From: a virus
Length of the DNA stretch: 64,000 bases
Reading direction: 5' to 3' (one strand)
Virus record (IMG/VR): IMGVR_UViG_3300045988_111617
Position numbers and translations under genes: made by a program. Under the pieces are notes generated by a model. The model was not told the DNA's origin. It saw only the letters and a list, made by a program, of their open reading frames with translations, and made no database searches. Shown here piece after piece: positions 1-11,021 of the stretch; position 1 is the stretch's first letter; each line of letters starts with the position of its first letter.

Positions 1-183
1 ATATATTACCATCTATAGAAATTCAACATAAATATTGGTACTTATGGCGAGTTTCATTTTCTTGGTTAAAATGGAATTACACTATTAATATTACTAACCA
101 ATATTGGAATAAAGGTTAATAATAAATGCCAGAATGGTGGAATTGGTAGACACGAGGGACTTTAATAATAAAATGAATTAGTT

Positions 184-666
184 ATGGTTTATGAAAATTG
201 TAAATTTTATGGACCATATCAAAGTAAAAAGGATAAAAGATTAAGATGTTTATTAGTTCGTCCAAATGGAACTAAAGTTACATTATCTTATCCTAAATAC
301 TTGATGGAAGTTCATTTAGATAGATATTTGGAAAATAATGAAACAGTAGACCATATTGATGGGAATTTTCTCAATAATGATATTTCTAATTTACAAATTT
401 TAAAAAGGCAAGAACACTGTTATAATGATGTTATTAGAAATAAAAACATTAAAGTTAAATGTAGTTATTGTGGGAAATTATTTACTATACCAGGAAATAT
501 GATTAACAATAGAAATAGAAAGTTATCTGGATATTTTTGTAGTAAAAGCTGTTCTGGAAAATATGGAAGAGAAATTCAATTAGGTCTTAGGACAAAAGAA
601 GAAGATTCTCAAAAAATAATTCCAAATAAATATCAGGTTAAGAGTGCTCAAGTTGGAAACTCTTGA
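184..666 (+). CDS. HNH homing endonuclease
   Basis: 160-aa ORF; HNH-type motif VDHIDGNFLNNDISNLQIL; C-terminal Cys cluster CSYCGK...CSKSCSGK; TGA stop. Confidence 0.65.
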   Translation: MVYENCKFYGPYQSKKDKRLRCLLVRPNGTKVTLSYPKYLMEVHLDRYLENNETVDHIDGNFLNNDISNLQILKRQEHCYNDVIRNKNIKVKCSYCGKLFTIPGNMINNRNRKLSGYFCSKSCSGKYGREIQLGLRTKEEDSQKIIPNKYQVKSAQVGNS

Positions 667-924
667 GTAGATGTGGGCTAAACGGTGAAGGTTTCAGCCT
701 GTAAATGAAAATAACGCCGTGCTAAATTCAATAAATTAACTTATTGATAAATGTGTAGAGACTATACACCCACCTCCTAAACAATAATTATATTGCACGG
801 AGAAGACATAGTCCAAGCTAATAATTAATAGTAAGATTATTAGTATGAAAATCCCTTGGGCAGCAATGCCTGTGTGAGTTCAAGTCTCATTTCTGGTACT
901 AACTAAAGATATTGTATAGTGACA

Positions 925-983
925 GACAGAGTTACTTCATTAAGACTTGCAATTCTTAACTCTCATATAACAGCATCTCTGTC
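925..983 (+). other. structured element A (7-bp outer stem gacagag/ctctgtc enclosing gagttacttc motif and inner 4-bp hairpin)
   Basis: Perfect 7-bp inverted repeat closing 45 nt; inner hairpin aaga/tctt; shares core gagttacttc with elements at 1028, 1176, 4934. Confidence 0.35.
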
Positions 984-1027
984 TAAATTTTCTTATGATA
1001 TCTTATATAAGGCACTATTGTTGACAT

Positions 1028-1069
1028 TTAGAGTTACTTCAAGCGTCTCTTGCTTTCAACAGACTCTAA
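1028..1069 (+). other. structured element B (7-bp outer stem ttagagt/actctaa, gagttacttc core, inner hairpin aagc/gctt)
   Basis: Outer and inner stems covary relative to element A while the single-stranded core is conserved; immediately upstream of the tRNA. Confidence 0.35.
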
Positions 1070-1100
1070 AGATTGTTACATAGTGTCTTTCAATCTAAAC

Positions 1101-1230
1101 TTCCCTGTAGCTCAGTTGGTAGAGCATGATGTAAAAAGAACTGTAAAGAATGTTCCCTAATTGTGGTGATGTTTACAGTTACTTCGGATTTGTAATCTCA
1201 GGGTCCTTGGTTCGAGTCCAAGCAGGGAAG
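1101..1230 (+). tRNA. tRNA-like gene with canonical acceptor, D and T arms, interrupted by about 60-nt insertion; anticodon unresolved
   Basis: 7/7 acceptor pairing ttccctg(1101-1107)/cagggaa(1223-1229). D arm is tagctcagttggtagagc. T arm is cttgg-ttcgagt-ccaag. The insertion contains a 9-bp hairpin aactgtaaa(1140-1148)/tttacagtt(1171-1179). No 5-nt partner for the anticodon stem tgatg could be found. Confidence 0.45.
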
Positions 1231-3474: not shown

Positions 3475-3656
3475 ATAAATTTAATATGTTAGTAAAAGAA
3501 CTTATTGAGGAGCTTAAGAAGTTTCCTGAAGATGCTGATATCATAGTTACTACAAAATATAAAGGATATAATGTTATATCTTCTGTTGGAGCTATGAGAA
3601 CTGTTGAAACAGAGAAAGACAATGCTGAAACTATTTGTCCAGTATTGATTTTCTAA
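3465..3656 (+). CDS. hypothetical protein
   Basis: 63-aa ORF overlapping previous stop. Confidence 0.4.
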   Translation: MFLNKFNMLVKELIEELKKFPEDADIIVTTKYKGYNVISSVGAMRTVETEKDNAETICPVLIF

Positions 3657-3671
3657 ATATATGGGGGTGTT

Positions 3672-3845
3672 TTGGTTTTGATTACACTCTATTTGGTAGT
3701 ACCTTATGCAGTAGATGTGCAGCCTACTTTAAAAAAGCACAAACCAATAAATGCTAACAAAGCTAGAAAAACAGTTAGAAGCCTTGTAGATTATATTAAA
3801 TCTGCTATGCAGGCACCAGCAATCTCTTTTGCAGTTGCTGCCTAA
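3672..3845 (+). CDS. possible small secreted/membrane protein with TTG start
   Basis: Open frame from stop at 3654 to TAA 3843-3845 without ATG; TTG at 3672; hydrophobic N-terminus LVLITLYLVVPYA. Confidence 0.2.
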   Translation: MVLITLYLVVPYAVDVQPTLKKHKPINANKARKTVRSLVDYIKSAMQAPAISFAVAA

Positions 3846-4197
3846 CAACTGGCTTTAGTATTTGTGCCTTAAACAAATACTTGGTGGATGATGGGTGGAT
3901 GTTACCACCTGACTTTTGGAGTATTTCAGCAGTAATTGAAATACTATCCTAAGCATATAAATAAAGGTATTATTGAAGGTTTGTAAGACACAGGTTCAAC
4001 TACTCGGACCCTCTGCACAGGAATGTGCAGATGAAAACTGCTTGAACTGCTGGAAAGCTAAGTATCTGTTGAGAAACACATATATGCTAATCAGCATCCA
4101 AGCCTCTGGGAAGACAGAGGAAGGTTCAGAGACTAAGGACACTAAGGTGAGCCTACAGTAAGCAGCACCAAGAACTGGTGATGATATAGTCCAATCT

Positions 4198-4773
4198 CTA
4201 ATTAAAATTAGAAATATATTTTGAAATTAATTTAAGATATTGTTTAGTTTCTAAATCAGACATTGTATTTTTAAGATAATTTATAGGAGTAGATACAAAT
4301 TGTATATTTCCTATGATATATCCTTTAGAAGAATCTATTCTATCTAAAGAAGCCCTATTAGCAATAGGAATATCTTTAGTATGATTAGATGTAGGTAAAA
4401 TAAGAGAAATTCCAGTATATGGACATATTCCTTGCTGATTATTCCAGACTTCTCTGAGATAATCTATAGTCAAATTAAAGTTCTTATACCTCTTTTTAGC
4501 ATTTCTAAAGGTATATTTAAAAGGAGTATCTTCTGTTCTTTTATTCCCTGAAAGAGAAGATATATGCTTTTTACCTTCTTCACTGTTTCTCCAATCAGAA
4601 GTGTGATTAAGATTATGTTTATTAGCATAAAGTACTGAGCAACTTCTGGAACAGAAGTTATGTCTTCCTAATTTTAAATTTCTTTTATACTCTGATTCTG
4701 GTTTAGTAGCTTCACATCCACAATTATCACATGTAAAAGTGATAAGTTTTCTATTTTTCTTATAATTTAGCAT
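4198..4773 (-). CDS. HNH homing endonuclease
   Basis: 191 aa; N-terminal CDNCGC...CSRSC zinc-binding; C-terminal SLDRIDSSKGYIIGNIQFV typical of phage HNH_3 endonucleases. Confidence 0.6.
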   Translation of the reverse strand: MLNYKKNRKLITFTCDNCGCEATKPESEYKRNLKLGRHNFCSRSCSVLYANKHNLNHTSDWRNSEEGKKHISSLSGNKRTEDTPFKYTFRNAKKRYKNFNLTIDYLREVWNNQQGICPYTGISLILPTSNHTKDIPIANRASLDRIDSSKGYIIGNIQFVSTPINYLKNTMSDLETKQYLKLISKYISNFN

Positions 4774-4985
4774 AGTTAATATAATTAATCATGCAAAGAT
4801 AAGAATAAGTCGTGGAATTATCAAGTTAATAATTGAAATATTTAGCGAGTCCTGTCACCTCCACTAATAAATGGGGAAGTAGCATAATAAAAAAACTCTT
4901 GAGCTTTTACTTCTGAAGAGATAGTGTTATTGAGAGTTACTTCAGGTTAATGCATTAGTATCATAAACTAAAGATTGTTTGTTCA

Positions 4986-5001
4986 AATCAAACCTTCCCC
5001 A
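4986..5001 (+). repeat. 16-bp direct repeat aatcaaaccttcccca (left copy) flanking GIY-YIG cassette
   Basis: Exact 16-nt match with 5712-5727. Confidence 0.8.
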
Positions 5002-5068
5002 GGAACATAAAAGTAGAACCTCCACGCGGTATGTTCTGGGTAATGCTAATCTACTTAATATAACAATT

Positions 5069-5713
5069 ATGATTTCTATTTACTGTATTACTAATAAAAT
5101 AAATGGAAAAAAGTATGTTGGGAAAACTCATTTACCTATAACTTCCAGATTTTCCCAACATATCCATGATGCTCTGTTTAGACCTTCTATGAATAGACCT
5201 CTACATAAGGCTATATTAAAATATGGAAGAGAAAATTTTGATATAGAATTGCTATGTACCTGTAGTATAGAAGAATCAGATTCAAAGGAGTCTTATTATA
5301 TCAATAAATTAGGTACTTATAGAAAAGGATATAATGTAACTCTTGGAGGAGAAGGTAAATTTTCTATTGACTATAAAGAAGTAATTGCGGTATATAAATC
5401 TGGAAACAGTATAACAGAAACTTCAAGGATAGTAGGATGTGATAAAAGTTCTGTCTTGAAGATTTTAGATATGTATAATATTAAAAGACATCCAAGATTT
5501 TCTGTTACTTCTGGCAAGAGTAAAGCTAAAGCTGTCTTGCAATATTCATTAGATAATAAATTTCTTAGGAAATTTAACTCCTCAGAAGAAGCAGCTAAAC
5601 ATATTGTACAAGAGAGAAGAATAAAGTATAGCAAAGGGGTGTCTTCTAAAATAGCAAATTGTGCTAAACATAAGACATTCTCAGCATATGAATATAAGTG
5701 GGAGTATGAGTAA
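5069..5713 (+). CDS. GIY-YIG homing endonuclease
   Basis: MISIYCITNKINGKKYVGKT GIY-YIG motif; the ORF-track start at 4979 is TTG and lies upstream of the repeat; ATG at 5069 favoured. Confidence 0.7.
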   Translation: MISIYCITNKINGKKYVGKTHLPITSRFSQHIHDALFRPSMNRPLHKAILKYGRENFDIELLCTCSIEESDSKESYYINKLGTYRKGYNVTLGGEGKFSIDYKEVIAVYKSGNSITETSRIVGCDKSSVLKILDMYNIKRHPRFSVTSGKSKAKAVLQYSLDNKFLRKFNSSEEAAKHIVQERRIKYSKGVSSKIANCAKHKTFSAYEYKWEYE

Positions 5714-7444: not shown

Positions 7445-8146
7445 ATGGACAATCAGCAGCCAAGTACTAATTACAGAAGTATAAAGAAAAATGCTCTAAA
7501 ATACATAGTTTCTATTGGGGAAATCTATGGAGTTTATAAAGTATTATCTGAAGAGAAAATACAAACTTCTAAATGTACAGAAGTTAGATATAGATGTGTA
7601 AATATAAACTCTGGGCAAGAATATCTTAAAAGAGGAAGAGAACTTTATAGAATAAGAGACAGAGTAAATAATAAATTTCAAAATAAAAGACAAGAAGGAC
7701 TTAGAAGGTATTTATATAGAAATTATATGAATAATGCAAGGAAAAGGAAGCATGACTTCTCTTTATCATTTGAGGAATTTGATAATCTTATATCACAGCC
7801 ATGTTATTATTGTGGAGAACCTCCTAAAGAGGTAGATAAAGAGTTCCTTTGTAAAAGAGGGGATAGATTTCAACCCAATATAACTGTAAATGGAATTGAT
7901 AGAAAGAATCCTCTGATTGGTTATCAGTTAGATAACTGTGTTCCTTGTTGTCCTACTTGTAATTATATGAAACATGTCTCTACAGAATCTGAATTTCTCT
8001 CTCAAATAAAGAAAATCTATACTTTTAAAATTAGTAAAGGTTCAACGACTATCCCGAGAGGGAGTACATCACAAGCTAATGGTGATGGAAATGGGAAACC
8101 CTTAACAGATAATACTGAAGGTGAAGATATAGTCTCAACTTTATAG
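7445..8146 (+). CDS. HNH homing endonuclease (intron-encoded)
   Basis: 233 aa; HNH motif GIDRKNPLIGYQLDNCVPCCPTCNYMKH. Confidence 0.65.
   Translation: MDNQQPSTNYRSIKKNALKYIVSIGEIYGVYKVLSEEKIQTSKCTEVRYRCVNINSGQEYLKRGRELYRIRDRVNNKFQNKRQEGLRRYLYRNYMNNARKRKHDFSLSFEEFDNLISQPCYYCGEPPKEVDKEFLCKRGDRFQPNITVNGIDRKNPLIGYQLDNCVPCCPTCNYMKHVSTESEFLSQIKKIYTFKISKGSTTIPRGSTSQANGDGNGKPLTDNTEGEDIVSTL
8099..8134 (+). repeat. 36-nt repeat (33/36 identical to 11857-11892), intron core segment
   Basis: cccttaacagataatactgaaggtgaagatatagtc vs cccttaacagataatgctgaaggtgaagacatggtc. Confidence 0.8.
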
Positions 8147-8208
8147 AAATATAAAGAAGTTTCATAGAAAACTGCATAAGTGTTGCGAACTTATGTGAAG
8201 ATAAAATG

Positions 8209-10863: not shown

Positions 10864-11021
10864 ATGGAGTTTTCAGAAGTGTTGCAAGACCTTCAAAGGA
10901 GAAGAGATAGAGTGATGAATGGACTGTGGAACTGTATTCCACTGCCATTTCCAAGATTTAAACAGTTACTTCCTGGATTTGAACAGGGAAAGTACATAGT
11001 GGTTACTGCTAATCAGAAGGT
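10864..11021 (+). CDS. DnaB-like replicative helicase, exon 1
   Basis: ATG 10864; ...LPGFEQGKYIVVTANQKV supplies the first half of the Walker A; the frame stops 3 codons into the intron (TAA 11029-11031). Confidence 0.55.

What the first reader, a model, noticed from the sequence alone, without database searches (positions are those of the whole stretch)
925..1185. Family of small structured elements with conserved gagttacttc core and covarying stems
Elements A (925-983) and B (1028-1069) each have a perfect 7-bp outer stem of different sequence (gacagag/ctctgtc vs ttagagt/actctaa). Each also has an inner 4-bp hairpin that differs (aaga/tctt vs aagc/gctt). Both keep the unpaired core t(t)acttc. 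A third copy, acagttacttcggattt, lies in the tRNA insertion within a 9-bp hairpin. A fourth lies at 4931-4985 next to the HEGs. An 11-mer plus extension, acagttacttc(ct)ggattt, recurs inside helicase exon 1 at 10962-10980, close to the intron insertion site. Compensatory changes argue for RNA structure. The elements could be small RNAs, processing or regulatory sites, or homing-endonuclease recognition sequences.
Basis: seen in the sequence. Interest (0 to 1): 0.55.

Follow-up and report, generated by a model that had tools for sequence, protein, structure and literature searches.

The report
Phage Y-like RNAs, some within tRNAs
The repeated gagttacttc motif marks a family of small structured RNAs that phages encode beside a Ro60-type RNA-binding protein, and in this crAss-like gut phage two copies stand alone while two are built into otherwise normal tRNA genes.

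Summary
The motif is one strand of a two-part RNA module: outer stem S0, a UAGUG loop, an 8-bp stem S1, then UUACUUC. The partner strand reads AYA, S1', N-UGUUCU, S0'. Both stems covary strongly in about 160 distinct copies from related phages, while the loops stay 88-100% conserved.

The window holds four copies. A (906-1004) and B (1009-1089) are free-standing RNAs of about 80-100 nt. C (1129-1185) and D (about 4889-4943) are circularly permuted hairpins. C sits in the anticodon stem of a tRNA-Thr and D in the D-loop of a tRNA-Met. That is why ARAGORN finds no tRNA here.

In relatives the copies lie next to a TROVE/Ro60 gene on the same strand, including cultured crAss001, where they fill an unannotated 900-nt gap. 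This also holds in 22 distant phage lineages retrieved by the DNA motif alone. Some copies enclose a permuted tRNA-like domain. Copies in Xanthomonas phage Tenjo and in IMG/VR viral contig L004 draw sub-threshold Rfam YrlA hits.

Best reading: a divergent phage subclass of Ro60-binding Y RNAs (YrlA/YrlB type). The tRNA-embedded form is the new part. The helicase 11-mer is not a member. The homing-endonuclease and promoter readings are not supported.

The parts
906..1004 (+). Element A: free-standing Y-like RNA. S0 906-916/994-1004 (11 bp). UAGUG 917-921. S1 924-931/977-984 (8 bp). UUACUUC 932-938. Variable hairpin 940-959. 3' loop AAAUUUUCU 985-993.
   Evidence: Covariance model R1 gives 46.7 bits, E about 1e-7, at 910-1000. 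The minimum-free-energy fold reproduces S0, S1 and the inner hairpin. The inner hairpin has compensatory changes in L076 and L121.
1009..1089 (+). Element B: free-standing Y-like RNA, variant with UGUUG and GUUAC loops. S0 1009-1018/1080-1089. UGUUG 1019-1023. S1 1027-1033/1064-1070. UUACUUC 1034-1040. Hairpin 1041-1055. 3' loop GAUUGUUAC 1071-1079.
   Evidence: R1 gives 55.3 bits, E about 1e-9, at 1012-1086. Fold z-score is -4.3. The hairpin AAGC/GCTT becomes AACT/AGTT in relatives. The same UGUUG...GUUAC variant occurs in the viral contig of locus L215 (376 kb), at L215 4452-4531.
1101..1230 (+). tRNA-Thr(UGU) carrying embedded module C. The 5' part is 1101-1128. The module insert is 1129-1185, between tRNA positions 28 and 29. 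The 3' part is 1186-1230.
   Evidence: Read by eye. ARAGORN calls tRNA-Thr(tgt) once the module is removed in silico. The same arrangement occurs in L076, L121, L170 and L171.
1129..1185 (+). Module C, circularly permuted. A-rich linker 1129-1140. S1' CUGUAAA 1141-1147. AAUGUUCC 1149-1156. Short closing loop. UGGUG 1164-1168. S1 UUUACAG 1172-1178. UUACUUC 1179-1185.
   Evidence: Covariance model R2 gives 44.3 bits, E about 7e-9, at 1137-1187. It is a row in alignment A2, which carries the covariation statistics.
4873..5001 (+). tRNA-Met(CAU) carrying embedded module D in its D-loop. Acceptor 4873-4879/4994-5000. D-stem 4882-4885/4950-4953. Anticodon arm 4955-4971 (CAU at 4962-4964). T-arm 4977-4993. 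Discriminator A at 5001.
   Evidence: Read by eye. Weak Rfam tRNA hit at 4935-4995. The fold gives a cloverleaf with the module hairpin in the D-loop. ARAGORN calls tRNA-Met(cat) after removal of the module.
4889..4943 (+). Module D, circularly permuted. A-run 4889-4895. S1' CUCUUGAG 4896-4903. 3'-loop block CUUUUACUUCU 4904-4914. S0 UCU/AGA 4912-4914/4919-4921 closed by a GAAG loop. UAGUG 4922-4926. S1 4927-4936. UUACUUC 4937-4943.
   Evidence: R2 gives 59.3 bits, E about 1e-12, at 4892-4945. It is a row in alignment A2.

Best explanation
The gagttacttc core is one conserved strand of a Y-RNA-type module, that is, the binding platform for a phage-encoded Ro60 (TROVE + vWA) protein.

The module runs as follows: a stem S0, then an asymmetric internal loop (5' UAGUG(A/U), 3' N-UGUUC(U/C)), then a stem S1 of fixed length (8-9 bp), then a junction (5' UUACUUC, 3' AYA) that leads to a variable 'effector' part X.

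In the window, A and B are free-standing RNAs of about 80-100 nt whose X is a small hairpin, like Salmonella YrlB. In C and D the same module is circularly permuted: S0 is closed by a loop and X is a complete tRNA with open acceptor ends. The result is a tRNA-Thr and a tRNA-Met that each carry a Ro60-binding arm.

Shown here: the structure, the conservation pattern, the linkage to Ro60 genes and the shared architecture with YrlA.

Inferred: that the phage Ro60 binds the UAGUG/UGUUCU loop (the position of the GNCGAA motif in YrlA). Also inferred: that the RNAs act early in infection as tethers or gates that couple Ro60 to host RNA enzymes such as PNPase, or to tRNA-binding factors, as described for bacterial Y RNAs and for Thermus phage phiLo.
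For: 1. Structure.
- The embedded form (34 sequences) is 91.9% paired against 68% in shuffles. It has 91 doubly changed cells against 32, and 0 of 500 shuffles reach the observed score.
- The free-standing form is 86% paired against 59% in a plain MAFFT alignment.
- After model-based alignment of 118 hits (80 distinct) it is 93% paired, and 15 of 15 pairs show changes on both sides.
- The unpaired blocks are 88-100% conserved.

2. Linkage to Ro60.
- In 53 TROVE loci, 246 motif copies lie on the TROVE strand and 20 on the other. Of the 246, 231 lie within 1 kb downstream of the stop codon.
- All 118 R1 hits and all 137 R2 hits are on the TROVE strand.
- A motif-only scan, blind to TROVE, found TROVE next to every strong hit.
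- A looser motif-only scan returned 22 further loci whose TROVE proteins are very diverged (HMM 54-654 bits). There the motif is on the TROVE strand 47:6, mostly within a few hundred nt of the gene.
- TROVE is present in 16 of 26 model-hit loci against 4 of 74 loci without a hit.

3. The partner protein is a Ro60.
- Pfam TROVE scores 49 bits (cut-off 23), with a weak Ro60 vWA match.
- The best solved structure is the Thermus phage phiLo Ro60, E = 2e-14.

4. Same architecture as YrlA.
- Some copies enclose a permuted tRNA-like domain in the order T-arm, closed acceptor stem, D-arm. Examples are L215 2296-2470, L024 2826-2973 and L004 6244-6375.
- Five tandem copies lie upstream of the TROVE-like gene of Xanthomonas phage Tenjo. 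Several tandem copies (six read by eye, two matching the strict pattern) lie upstream of the TROVE gene of Caulobacter phage CcrColossus.
- Rfam YrlA gives sub-threshold hits in both phages: 55.9 and 38.8 bits in Tenjo, where both fall on module copies, and 42.3 bits in CcrColossus. CcrColossus is cited as a Y-RNA phage in PMC12135203.
- The UUAC matches the conserved YUAY of YrlA that follows the inner stem (PMC4201824).
- The series GGCGUAG (CcrColossus), GGUGAAG (Tenjo) and UAGUGAA (crAss-like) bridges GNCGAA to UAGUG.

5. In crAss001 itself, four strong model hits (five copies by the motif pattern) fill the unannotated gap between gp96 (TROVE) and gp95. TROVE is an early gene there (PMC8375218).
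Against: - No binding data exist.
- The literal GNCGAAN0-1G motif is absent: 0 of 80 free-standing and 0 of 77 embedded copies carry it in the 5' part.
- Rfam Y_RNA and YrlA give no hit in the window even at E = 5. No relative reaches the YrlA gathering score.
- The window itself holds no TROVE gene. In its closest relatives the gene lies 3.5-5.5 kb upstream of A to D, so it would fall just outside the window.
- Ten model-hit loci show no TROVE in the DNA held, four of them with more than 3 kb on each side.
- The viral contig of loci L213 and L215 (376 kb) has no TROVE within 3.6 kb upstream of its tRNA array.
- One TROVE locus, L223, has no module nearby.
- For C and D it is not known whether the module stays in the mature RNA.
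Confidence: 0.7

Rival explanations
1. In C and D the module is a tiny intervening sequence that is removed, by a phage or host endonuclease plus ligase that recognises the conserved loops, to give ordinary tRNA-Thr and tRNA-Met. Ro60 could even be the splicing or chaperone factor. A and B would then be solo copies or decoys.
For: Removing the module in silico gives a tRNA that ARAGORN accepts in 50 of 50 embedded cases. Helix S1 brings both ends of the insert together. The Thr(UGU) and Met(CAU) anticodons are kept in all window-like relatives. The tRNA-Met is followed at once by an HDV-like 3'-processing ribozyme, which suggests it is matured as a tRNA. A 55-nt arm in the D-loop or anticodon stem seems hard to fit on a ribosome; this is my own inference.
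Against: The insert has no known splicing signature. It is 57 nt long and ends in C. Rfam finds no group I core in it, and I saw no bulge-helix-bulge. The linkers between S1 and the tRNA vary in length: 7-12 nt on the 5' side and 0-4 extra A on the 3' side. The same module makes free-standing RNAs with their own covarying closing stem and effector hairpins. About 10 of 50 host tRNAs have 6- or 8-9-nt anticodon loops, and homologous scaffolds carry different anticodons, which fits poorly with decoding tRNAs.
Confidence: 0.15
2. The module is a structured RNA that works without Ro60. It could be a processing or stability element of phage tRNA arrays bound by some other factor, or an unrecognised ribozyme. 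Its closeness to TROVE would then only reflect that both sit in the early tRNA/ncRNA region.
For: All copies lie in or beside tRNA clusters. In the viral contigs of loci L215 (376 kb) and L024 (299 kb) the modules sit inside large tRNA arrays with no TROVE in the DNA held. The literal Ro60 motif GNCGAA is missing.
Against: Same-strand adjacency to TROVE recurs in many lineages whose TROVE proteins are barely alignable. This includes 44-kb Xanthomonas phages, where the copies lie directly upstream of the gene and no tRNA gene is annotated in the stretch fetched. The architecture equals YrlA. No known ribozyme family matches. Two conserved loops one helical turn apart on one coaxial stack look like a protein platform rather than a docking ribozyme core; this is my own inference.
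Confidence: 0.12
3. The motif is a DNA-level signal: a phage promoter with +1 at the purine after CTTC, or a homing-endonuclease recognition site.
For: The base after CTTC is nearly always a purine. HNH and GIY-YIG genes are close by. A similar 18-mer lies in the helicase gene near an intron.
Against: The motif is flanked by helices that covary with partner strands 20-150 nt away, or upstream of it in the permuted form. That only makes sense in a transcript. There are no copies upstream of protein-coding genes in 64 kb. Relatives without the introns or endonuclease genes keep the elements. The helicase site fails both models.
Confidence: 0.02

Closest known systems
Bacterial and phage YrlA / YrlB Y RNA-like RNAs (Chen et al. 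2014, PMC4201824; Rfam RF02553)
   Same: Both are encoded next to a Ro60/TROVE gene on the same strand, often in several copies. Both have a terminal stem, an asymmetric internal loop, a 7-8-bp inner stem, YUAY (here UUAC), and then an effector domain that is often a permuted tRNA-like fold (T-arm, closed acceptor stem, D-arm). A and B resemble YrlB, which has no tRNA-like domain. Copies in Xanthomonas phage Tenjo and in IMG/VR viral contig L004 draw sub-threshold RF02553 hits, and the CcrColossus array region draws them too.
   Different: The loop reads UAGUG(A/U) rather than GNCGAA, and UUACUUC and UGUUCU are extra strongly conserved blocks. The Rfam model does not detect the crAss-like copies at all. 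In C and D the topology is inverted: the Ro60 stem is closed and a complete tRNA in normal order, with its own anticodon arm, has the free ends.
Yrl1 / Yrl2 of Thermus phage phiLo with phiRo60 (PMC12135203; PDB 9L5Y, 9KOP)
   Same: A phage Ro60 with phage-encoded Y-like RNAs beside the gene. This Ro60 is the closest solved relative of the crAss-type protein (E = 2e-14). The proposed role is hijacking host PNPase.
   Different: The phiLo RNAs carry the CGAA motif and lie upstream of the gene. No tRNA-embedded forms are reported there.
Metazoan and Deinococcus Y RNAs
   Same: They are RNAs of about 80-130 nt with a long stem formed by the 5' and 3' ends, a conserved bulged Ro60 site and a variable loop that tethers other proteins.
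   Different: There is no detectable sequence similarity, and the Ro60 site (GGUCCGA) is different.
tRNA introns (bacterial group I; archaeal bulge-helix-bulge)
   Same: Both are inserts in the D-loop or anticodon stem of an otherwise intact tRNA gene. The window also has true group I introns in its tRNA-Leu and tmRNA.
   Different: The insert is only about 55 nt. It has no group I core, no terminal G and no bulge-helix-bulge, and the same module exists as free-standing RNAs.

Membership tests
Y RNA-like / YrlA-YrlB (Ro60-associated ncRNA) | Encoded within about 4 kb of a Ro60/TROVE gene, on the same strand | tested here: met
   In relatives, 231 of 246 copies lie within 1 kb downstream of the TROVE stop codon. 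All 118 R1 hits and all 137 R2 hits are on the TROVE strand. The same holds in 22 distant lineages, in crAss001, in Tenjo and in CcrColossus. In the window itself TROVE is absent. In its 94%-identical relative L171 the gene lies 3.5 kb upstream of A.
Y RNA-like / YrlA-YrlB (Ro60-associated ncRNA) | A stem formed by the 5' and 3' ends, with an internal loop, followed by an inner stem | tested here: met
   A and B both have this. S0 and S1 covary: 7 of 7 and 8 of 8 pairs show changes on both sides. In C and D the same helices are present but circularly permuted.
Y RNA-like / YrlA-YrlB (Ro60-associated ncRNA) | GNCGAAN0-1G motif near the 5' end (the putative Ro60 contact) | tested here: not met
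   None of the 80 free-standing and none of the 77 embedded copies carries it in the 5' part. UAGUG(A/U) stands at the equivalent place. Intermediates exist: GGCGUAG in CcrColossus and GGUGAAG in Tenjo.
Y RNA-like / YrlA-YrlB (Ro60-associated ncRNA) | Conserved YUAY just after the inner stem | tested here: met
   UUAC is 99-100% conserved immediately 3' of S1. The feature is described in PMC4201824.
YrlA specifically | tRNA-like domain in permuted order (V, T-arm, closed acceptor stem, D-arm) | tested here: not met
   A and B have only a small hairpin. C and D contain a complete tRNA in normal order. The permuted domain is present in other family members: L215, L024, L004 and Tenjo.
YrlA specifically | Reaches the Rfam RF02553 gathering score (69 bits) | tested here: not met
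   There is no hit in the window at E up to 5. There is none in L165, L215, L123, L222 or L171 at E up to 0.1. The best scores elsewhere are 55.9 bits (Tenjo), 42.3 (CcrColossus) and 37.5 (L004).
Y RNA-like / YrlA-YrlB (Ro60-associated ncRNA) | Physically bound by Ro60 | not testable with these tools
   This needs a gel-shift or immunoprecipitation experiment.
Group I or archaeal-type tRNA intron | Group I catalytic core with a terminal G, or a bulge-helix-bulge at the splice sites | tested here: not met
   The inserts are about 55-57 nt. In relatives they end in ...CUUC followed by A. Rfam finds no intron there, although it does find a group I intron at 7924-8156. The linkers on either side of S1 are 7-12 nt and 7-11 nt long, not 3-nt bulges.
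Known small self-cleaving ribozymes | Match to an Rfam ribozyme family | tested here: not met
   Nothing overlaps A to D at E up to 5. The only ribozyme-like hit is the separate HDV-like element at 5002-5056.

The most novel reading that the evidence does not exclude
The embedded copies are mature tRNA-Y RNA chimeras: complete, CCA-ended and possibly chargeable tRNAs that carry a Ro60-binding arm. The phage would use them to bring Ro60, and through it host exonucleases such as PNPase, to factors that bind tRNAs. Candidates are anticodon nucleases of host defence, tRNA-modifying enzymes or the ribosome. Alternatively they would shield phage tRNAs from those factors. The unstable anticodons and the odd loop sizes on otherwise conserved scaffolds would then reflect an arms race, not decoding.
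Probability: 0.25. Interest if true: 0.85.

Novelty: new variant of a known kind. Interest (0 to 1): 0.62.

Why it matters
- Coverage. CrAss-like phages are among the most abundant viruses of the human gut. Their TROVE/Ro60 gene is known as an early gene, but I found no paper that names its RNA partners. In crAss001 the 900 nt after the gene are unannotated. This work assigns that gap, and the equivalent regions of many other phages, to arrays of two to six Y-type RNAs. It also gives two covariance models that find them where Rfam YrlA does not.
- Annotation. It explains why tRNA finders report no tRNA in this window. Two of the three tRNA genes carry a 55-nt Ro60-type arm, and the third carries a group I intron.
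- Biology. The tRNA-embedded, circularly permuted form is the mirror image of bacterial YrlA. It makes the old question of why Y RNAs mimic tRNAs directly testable in a cultured phage-host pair, crAss001 and Bacteroides intestinalis.

Tried and rejected
- Promoter idea. The purine after CTTC and a TTGACA-like upstream block suggested a promoter. I dropped this once the covarying partner strands were seen.
- Known ribozymes. I considered hammerhead, HDV, twister, pistol and hairpin ribozymes by eye and through Rfam. None matched.
- A and B as tRNAs. I tried to read them as interrupted tRNAs. They have no T-arm or acceptor stem.
- The first motif scan. I took the loose 14-base pattern scan for chance noise after a BLAST against the window found only L076. 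That was wrong: the covariance models and a TROVE HMM later showed many true, distant family members in it.
- INPHARED searches. BLAST of the region against the phage collection gave little beyond the lead to PhiCrAssBcn17.
- TROVE in the L213/L215 viral contig. One step of contig walking gave only a 1480-aa gene on the other strand. This remains unresolved.
- Bacterial genomes. The TROVE-based scan returned only three metagenome-bin contigs that look like phage DNA. One has modules and one does not.
- The weak R1 hit at 3539-3605 lies in a coding region and was set aside.
- The CM alignment of Rfam YrlA to Tenjo maps the YrlA outer stem onto S1. I treat the exact helix-to-helix correspondence as unsettled.
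Full report
**1. What is in the window**

The window is AT-rich (34.6% GC). It has the giant ORFs typical of crAss-like phages: 2411, 2083, 1912 and 1352 aa.

GAGTTACTTCA occurs exactly at 929, 1031 and 4934, and a two-mismatch copy lies at 1176. The 8-mer GTTACTTC is over-represented, with 9 copies against 2.2 expected.

ARAGORN reports no tRNA in 64 kb, yet three tRNA genes can be read by eye.
- A tRNA-Leu(UAA) starts at 125 and is split by a group I intron carrying an HNH ORF (184-666).
- A tRNA-Thr(UGU) lies at 1101-1230 and has a 57-nt insert between positions 28 and 29.
- A tRNA-Met(CAU) lies at 4873-5001 and has a 55-nt insert in the D-loop.

Both short inserts end in ...AGTTACTTC.

**2. 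The motif is half of a larger, two-part module**

I compared close relatives (L076 and L121) with 53 loci fetched through a neighbouring TROVE gene. A constant design emerged:
- 5' strand: S0, then UAGUG(A/U), then S1 (8-9 nt), then UUACUUC.
- 3' strand: AYA, then S1', then N-UGUUC(U/C), then S0'.

In free-standing copies the 5' strand comes first and a variable part X lies between UUACUUC and AYA. In tRNA-embedded copies the order is permuted. The 3' strand comes first, S0 is closed by a short loop (often GAAG or GUAA), the 5' strand follows, and the tRNA body takes the place of X.

Window coordinates are A = 906-1004, B = 1009-1089, C = 1129-1185 and D = about 4889-4943. Minimum-free-energy folds reproduce these helices. 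For the tRNA-Met the fold gives a normal cloverleaf with the module as an extra arm.

**3. Is it more than chance?**

- In a plain MAFFT alignment of 34 embedded modules, the 11 proposed pairs are 91.9% paired. The figures are 68% in shuffles and about 40% when partners are slid. There are 91 doubly changed cells against 32, and 0 of 500 shuffles reach the observed score.
- In a plain alignment of 25 free-standing copies, pairing is 86% against 59%, and the covariation score is 0.75 against 0.22.
- A covariance model (R1) built from that alignment finds 118 copies in the fetched loci. On the model-based alignment all 15 pairs change on both sides and 93% of cells pair. That alignment leans towards the structure, but the MAFFT result does not.
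- The unpaired blocks are 88-100% conserved while the helices vary freely. This is the usual signature of a protein-binding or tertiary motif.
- Scanning the whole window with filters off, R1 finds only B (55 bits) and A (47 bits). R2, the embedded model, finds only D (59 bits) and C (44 bits).
- The helicase site at 10962-10980 scores 9.7 bits (E = 4) with R2 and does not appear in the R1 table. It is not a member.

**4. What it travels with**

The lead came from a weak BLAST hit to Bacteroides phage PhiCrAssBcn17, a crAss001-type Kehishuvirus. There the matching unannotated region directly follows a 'TROVE domain-containing protein' gene.

The protein passes the Pfam TROVE cut-off and weakly matches the Ro60 vWA domain. 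Its best solved relative is the Ro60 of Thermus phage phiLo, E = 2e-14.

Linkage in the 53 TROVE loci:
- 246 motif copies lie on the TROVE strand and 20 on the other.
- 231 of the 246 lie within 1 kb downstream of the stop codon, with two to six copies per phage.
- All 118 R1 hits and all 137 R2 hits are on the TROVE strand.

Two TROVE-blind tests:
- A 17-base motif scan of viral contigs gave 44 loci. Every locus with a strong R1 hit carries TROVE beside it, apart from one truncated locus whose contig is known to. The motif hits without an R1 hit are chance and have no TROVE.
- I had first dismissed the 120 loci of an earlier, looser motif scan as noise. They contain many true modules from unrelated-looking phages. 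A TROVE HMM finds the gene in 22 of them, at 54-654 bits against about 990 for crAss001-type proteins. The motif is on the gene's strand 47:6, usually within a few hundred nt upstream or downstream. TROVE is present in 16 of 26 model-hit loci against 4 of 74 others.

Exceptions:
- Ten model-hit loci show no TROVE in the DNA held, four of them with more than 3 kb on each side.
- The 376-kb viral contig of loci L213 and L215 has modules inside a large tRNA array but no TROVE within 3.6 kb upstream.
- One TROVE locus has no module.

In the window's own lineage (L171, 94% identical) TROVE lies 3.5 kb upstream of A, which would be just before the window starts. The window itself has no TROVE.

**5. 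Relation to known Y RNAs**

Bacterial Y RNA-like RNAs (YrlA, YrlB) are defined by several features. They lie beside Ro60 on the same strand. They have a terminal stem with a GNCGAAN0-1G motif and a conserved YUAY after the inner stem. YrlA also has a permuted tRNA-like domain (PMC4201824).

The present family has the same layout. UUAC stands where YUAY does. Several members enclose exactly such a permuted domain of T-arm, loop-closed acceptor stem and D-arm: L215 2296-2470, L024 2826-2973 and L004 6244-6375.

Cultured proteobacterial phages give the bridge.
- Xanthomonas phage Tenjo has five tandem copies (UGGUG, S1, GUUACUUC ... UUCC, S0') upstream of its TROVE-like gene. Rfam YrlA hits two of them at 55.9 and 38.8 bits, and R1 hits a third.
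- Caulobacter phage CcrColossus is cited in PMC12135203 as a phage with Y RNA-like RNAs. It has several tandem copies with UGGCGUAG ... (U)UACUUC ... UUCC; I read six by eye, and two match the strict pattern. Rfam YrlA gives sub-threshold hits in the same array region, the best at 42.3 bits.

The series GGCGUAG, GGUGAAG, UAGUGAA suggests that UAGUG is the diverged GNCGAA site. That step is inference.

Formal membership fails on two points. The literal motif is absent. The Rfam model finds nothing in the window or in the crAss-like loci. I therefore file the family as a divergent phage subclass of Y RNA-like RNAs, not as YrlA proper.

**6. How it most likely works**

Shown here: the fold, the conservation pattern, the linkage and the shared architecture.

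Inferred:
- The phage Ro60 binds the UAGUG/UGUUCU loop. The fixed 8-9-bp S1 places the UUACUUC/AYA junction one helical turn away on the same face, so that X is presented next to the protein.
- By analogy with Deinococcus and phiLo (PMC4201824, PMC12135203), X would tether Ro60 to another factor such as PNPase, or mimic a tRNA.
- TROVE is an early gene in crAss001 (PMC8375218), and the RNAs lie directly downstream in the same orientation. Early co-expression is therefore plausible, but I did not check it.

**7. The tRNA-embedded form**

Removing the module in silico yields an ARAGORN-acceptable tRNA in 50 of 50 cases. The hosts are thus real tRNA scaffolds. The tRNA-Met is followed at once by an HDV-like ribozyme.

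Two readings remain: the arm is retained, giving a chimera, or it is removed, making it a tiny intron. I favour retention for four reasons.
- The same module makes free-standing RNAs.
- There is no splicing signature.
- The linkers vary in length.
- The anticodon region of the host scaffolds is oddly unstable. The same scaffold carries Pro(UGG), Pro(AGG) or Tyr(GUA) in one case, and Met(CAU), Thr(GGU), Thr(CGU) or Asn(AUU) in another. About a fifth of the host tRNAs have 6- or 8-9-nt loops.

Only RNA-end mapping can settle this.

**8. Novelty**

Y RNAs next to phage Ro60 genes are known. I found no paper that names them in crAss-like phages, though the searchable library is incomplete. In the crAss001 reference record the region is unannotated.

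The genomic circular permutation that puts a Ro60-type arm into a full tRNA is, as far as I could find, undescribed. [quoted passage not shown]

**Verdict.** The identity is a new variant of a known kind, and interest is moderate to high.

Noticed in passing
window 5002-5056 (+): An HDV-like ('theta'-type) ribozyme candidate starts right after the discriminator base of the tRNA-Met. P1 is GGAACAU/AUGUUCU with a G.U at the cleavage site, and P2 is AAGUAGA/UCUACUU. Rfam HDV-F-prausnitzii gives only 22.9 bits (E = 1.1). A homologue after a plain tRNA-Met in MT835492 (L124, about 1540-1596) keeps the core (ACCUCCACG.GG...GGGUAAUGCUAA) and has compensatory changes in P1 (GAUUCAC/GUGAAUU) and P2 (AGUAAGA/UCUUACU).
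   Followed up: partly
window 125-897 (+): A tRNA-Leu(UAA) is split in the anticodon loop by a group I intron that carries an HNH ORF (184-666). Relative L121 (6756-6842) has the same tRNA uninterrupted, so this is an intron-plus and intron-minus pair.
   Followed up: partly
window 3661-4870 (+), with ORF 4198-4773 (-): The tmRNA gene is interrupted in its T-loop region by an insert that carries a reverse-strand endonuclease-like ORF. Rfam tmRNA scores only 48 bits here. In relative L171 (12503-12857) the tmRNA is uninterrupted and scores 91 bits.
   Followed up: partly
window 10962-10980 (+): ACAGTTACTTCctGGATTTG in the helicase-like ORF matches the junction of module C with the tRNA-Thr anticodon arm (ACAGTTACTTCGGATTTG) at 18 of 18 bases, with a 2-nt gap. 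Both covariance models reject it. In relatives, C reads ...CTTCAGATTTG, which weakens the match. It is probably chance plus coding constraint (QLLPGFEQ), but I did not resolve it.
   Followed up: partly
L125-L177, embedded tRNAs (e.g. L153 7840, L155 3387, L176 7625; L126 7640, L138 6003): Homologous tRNA scaffolds that carry the module differ in the anticodon itself (CAU, GAU, GGU, CGU, AUU; UGG, AGG, GUA). Several have 6-, 8- or 9-nt anticodon loops, while the stems and T-arms covary normally. This suggests relaxed or diversifying selection on the anticodon loop.
   Followed up: partly
L215 1-7429 and L213 (IMGVR_UViG_3300031994_002305, 376 kb; 3300028805_004760, 200 kb); L024 (299 kb): Very large viral contigs carry the module inside tRNA arrays: ARAGORN finds 24 tRNAs in the 7.4 kb of L215. 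One copy (L215 2296-2470) encloses a permuted tRNA that tRNA finders miss. No TROVE gene is seen in the DNA held.
   Followed up: partly
L228 5420-6324 (crAss001 MH675552, between gp96 and gp95): The reference genome of the type crAss-like isolate has an unannotated 900-nt gap. It holds four strong model hits (five copies by the motif pattern), including two module-bearing tRNAs.
   Followed up: yes
L171 1818-1906 and L170 3534-3618: In the window's closest relatives a further free-standing copy lies 2.4-4.1 kb upstream of the TROVE gene. The array therefore flanks the gene on both sides. That region lies outside the window.
   Followed up: no
window 5069-5713 (+): A GIY-YIG endonuclease ORF (MISIYCITNKINGKKYVGKT...) starts 13 nt after the HDV-like element. 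In MT835492 a similar ORF follows the homologous ribozyme, so the tRNA-Met, ribozyme and GIY-YIG trio may travel together.
   Followed up: no
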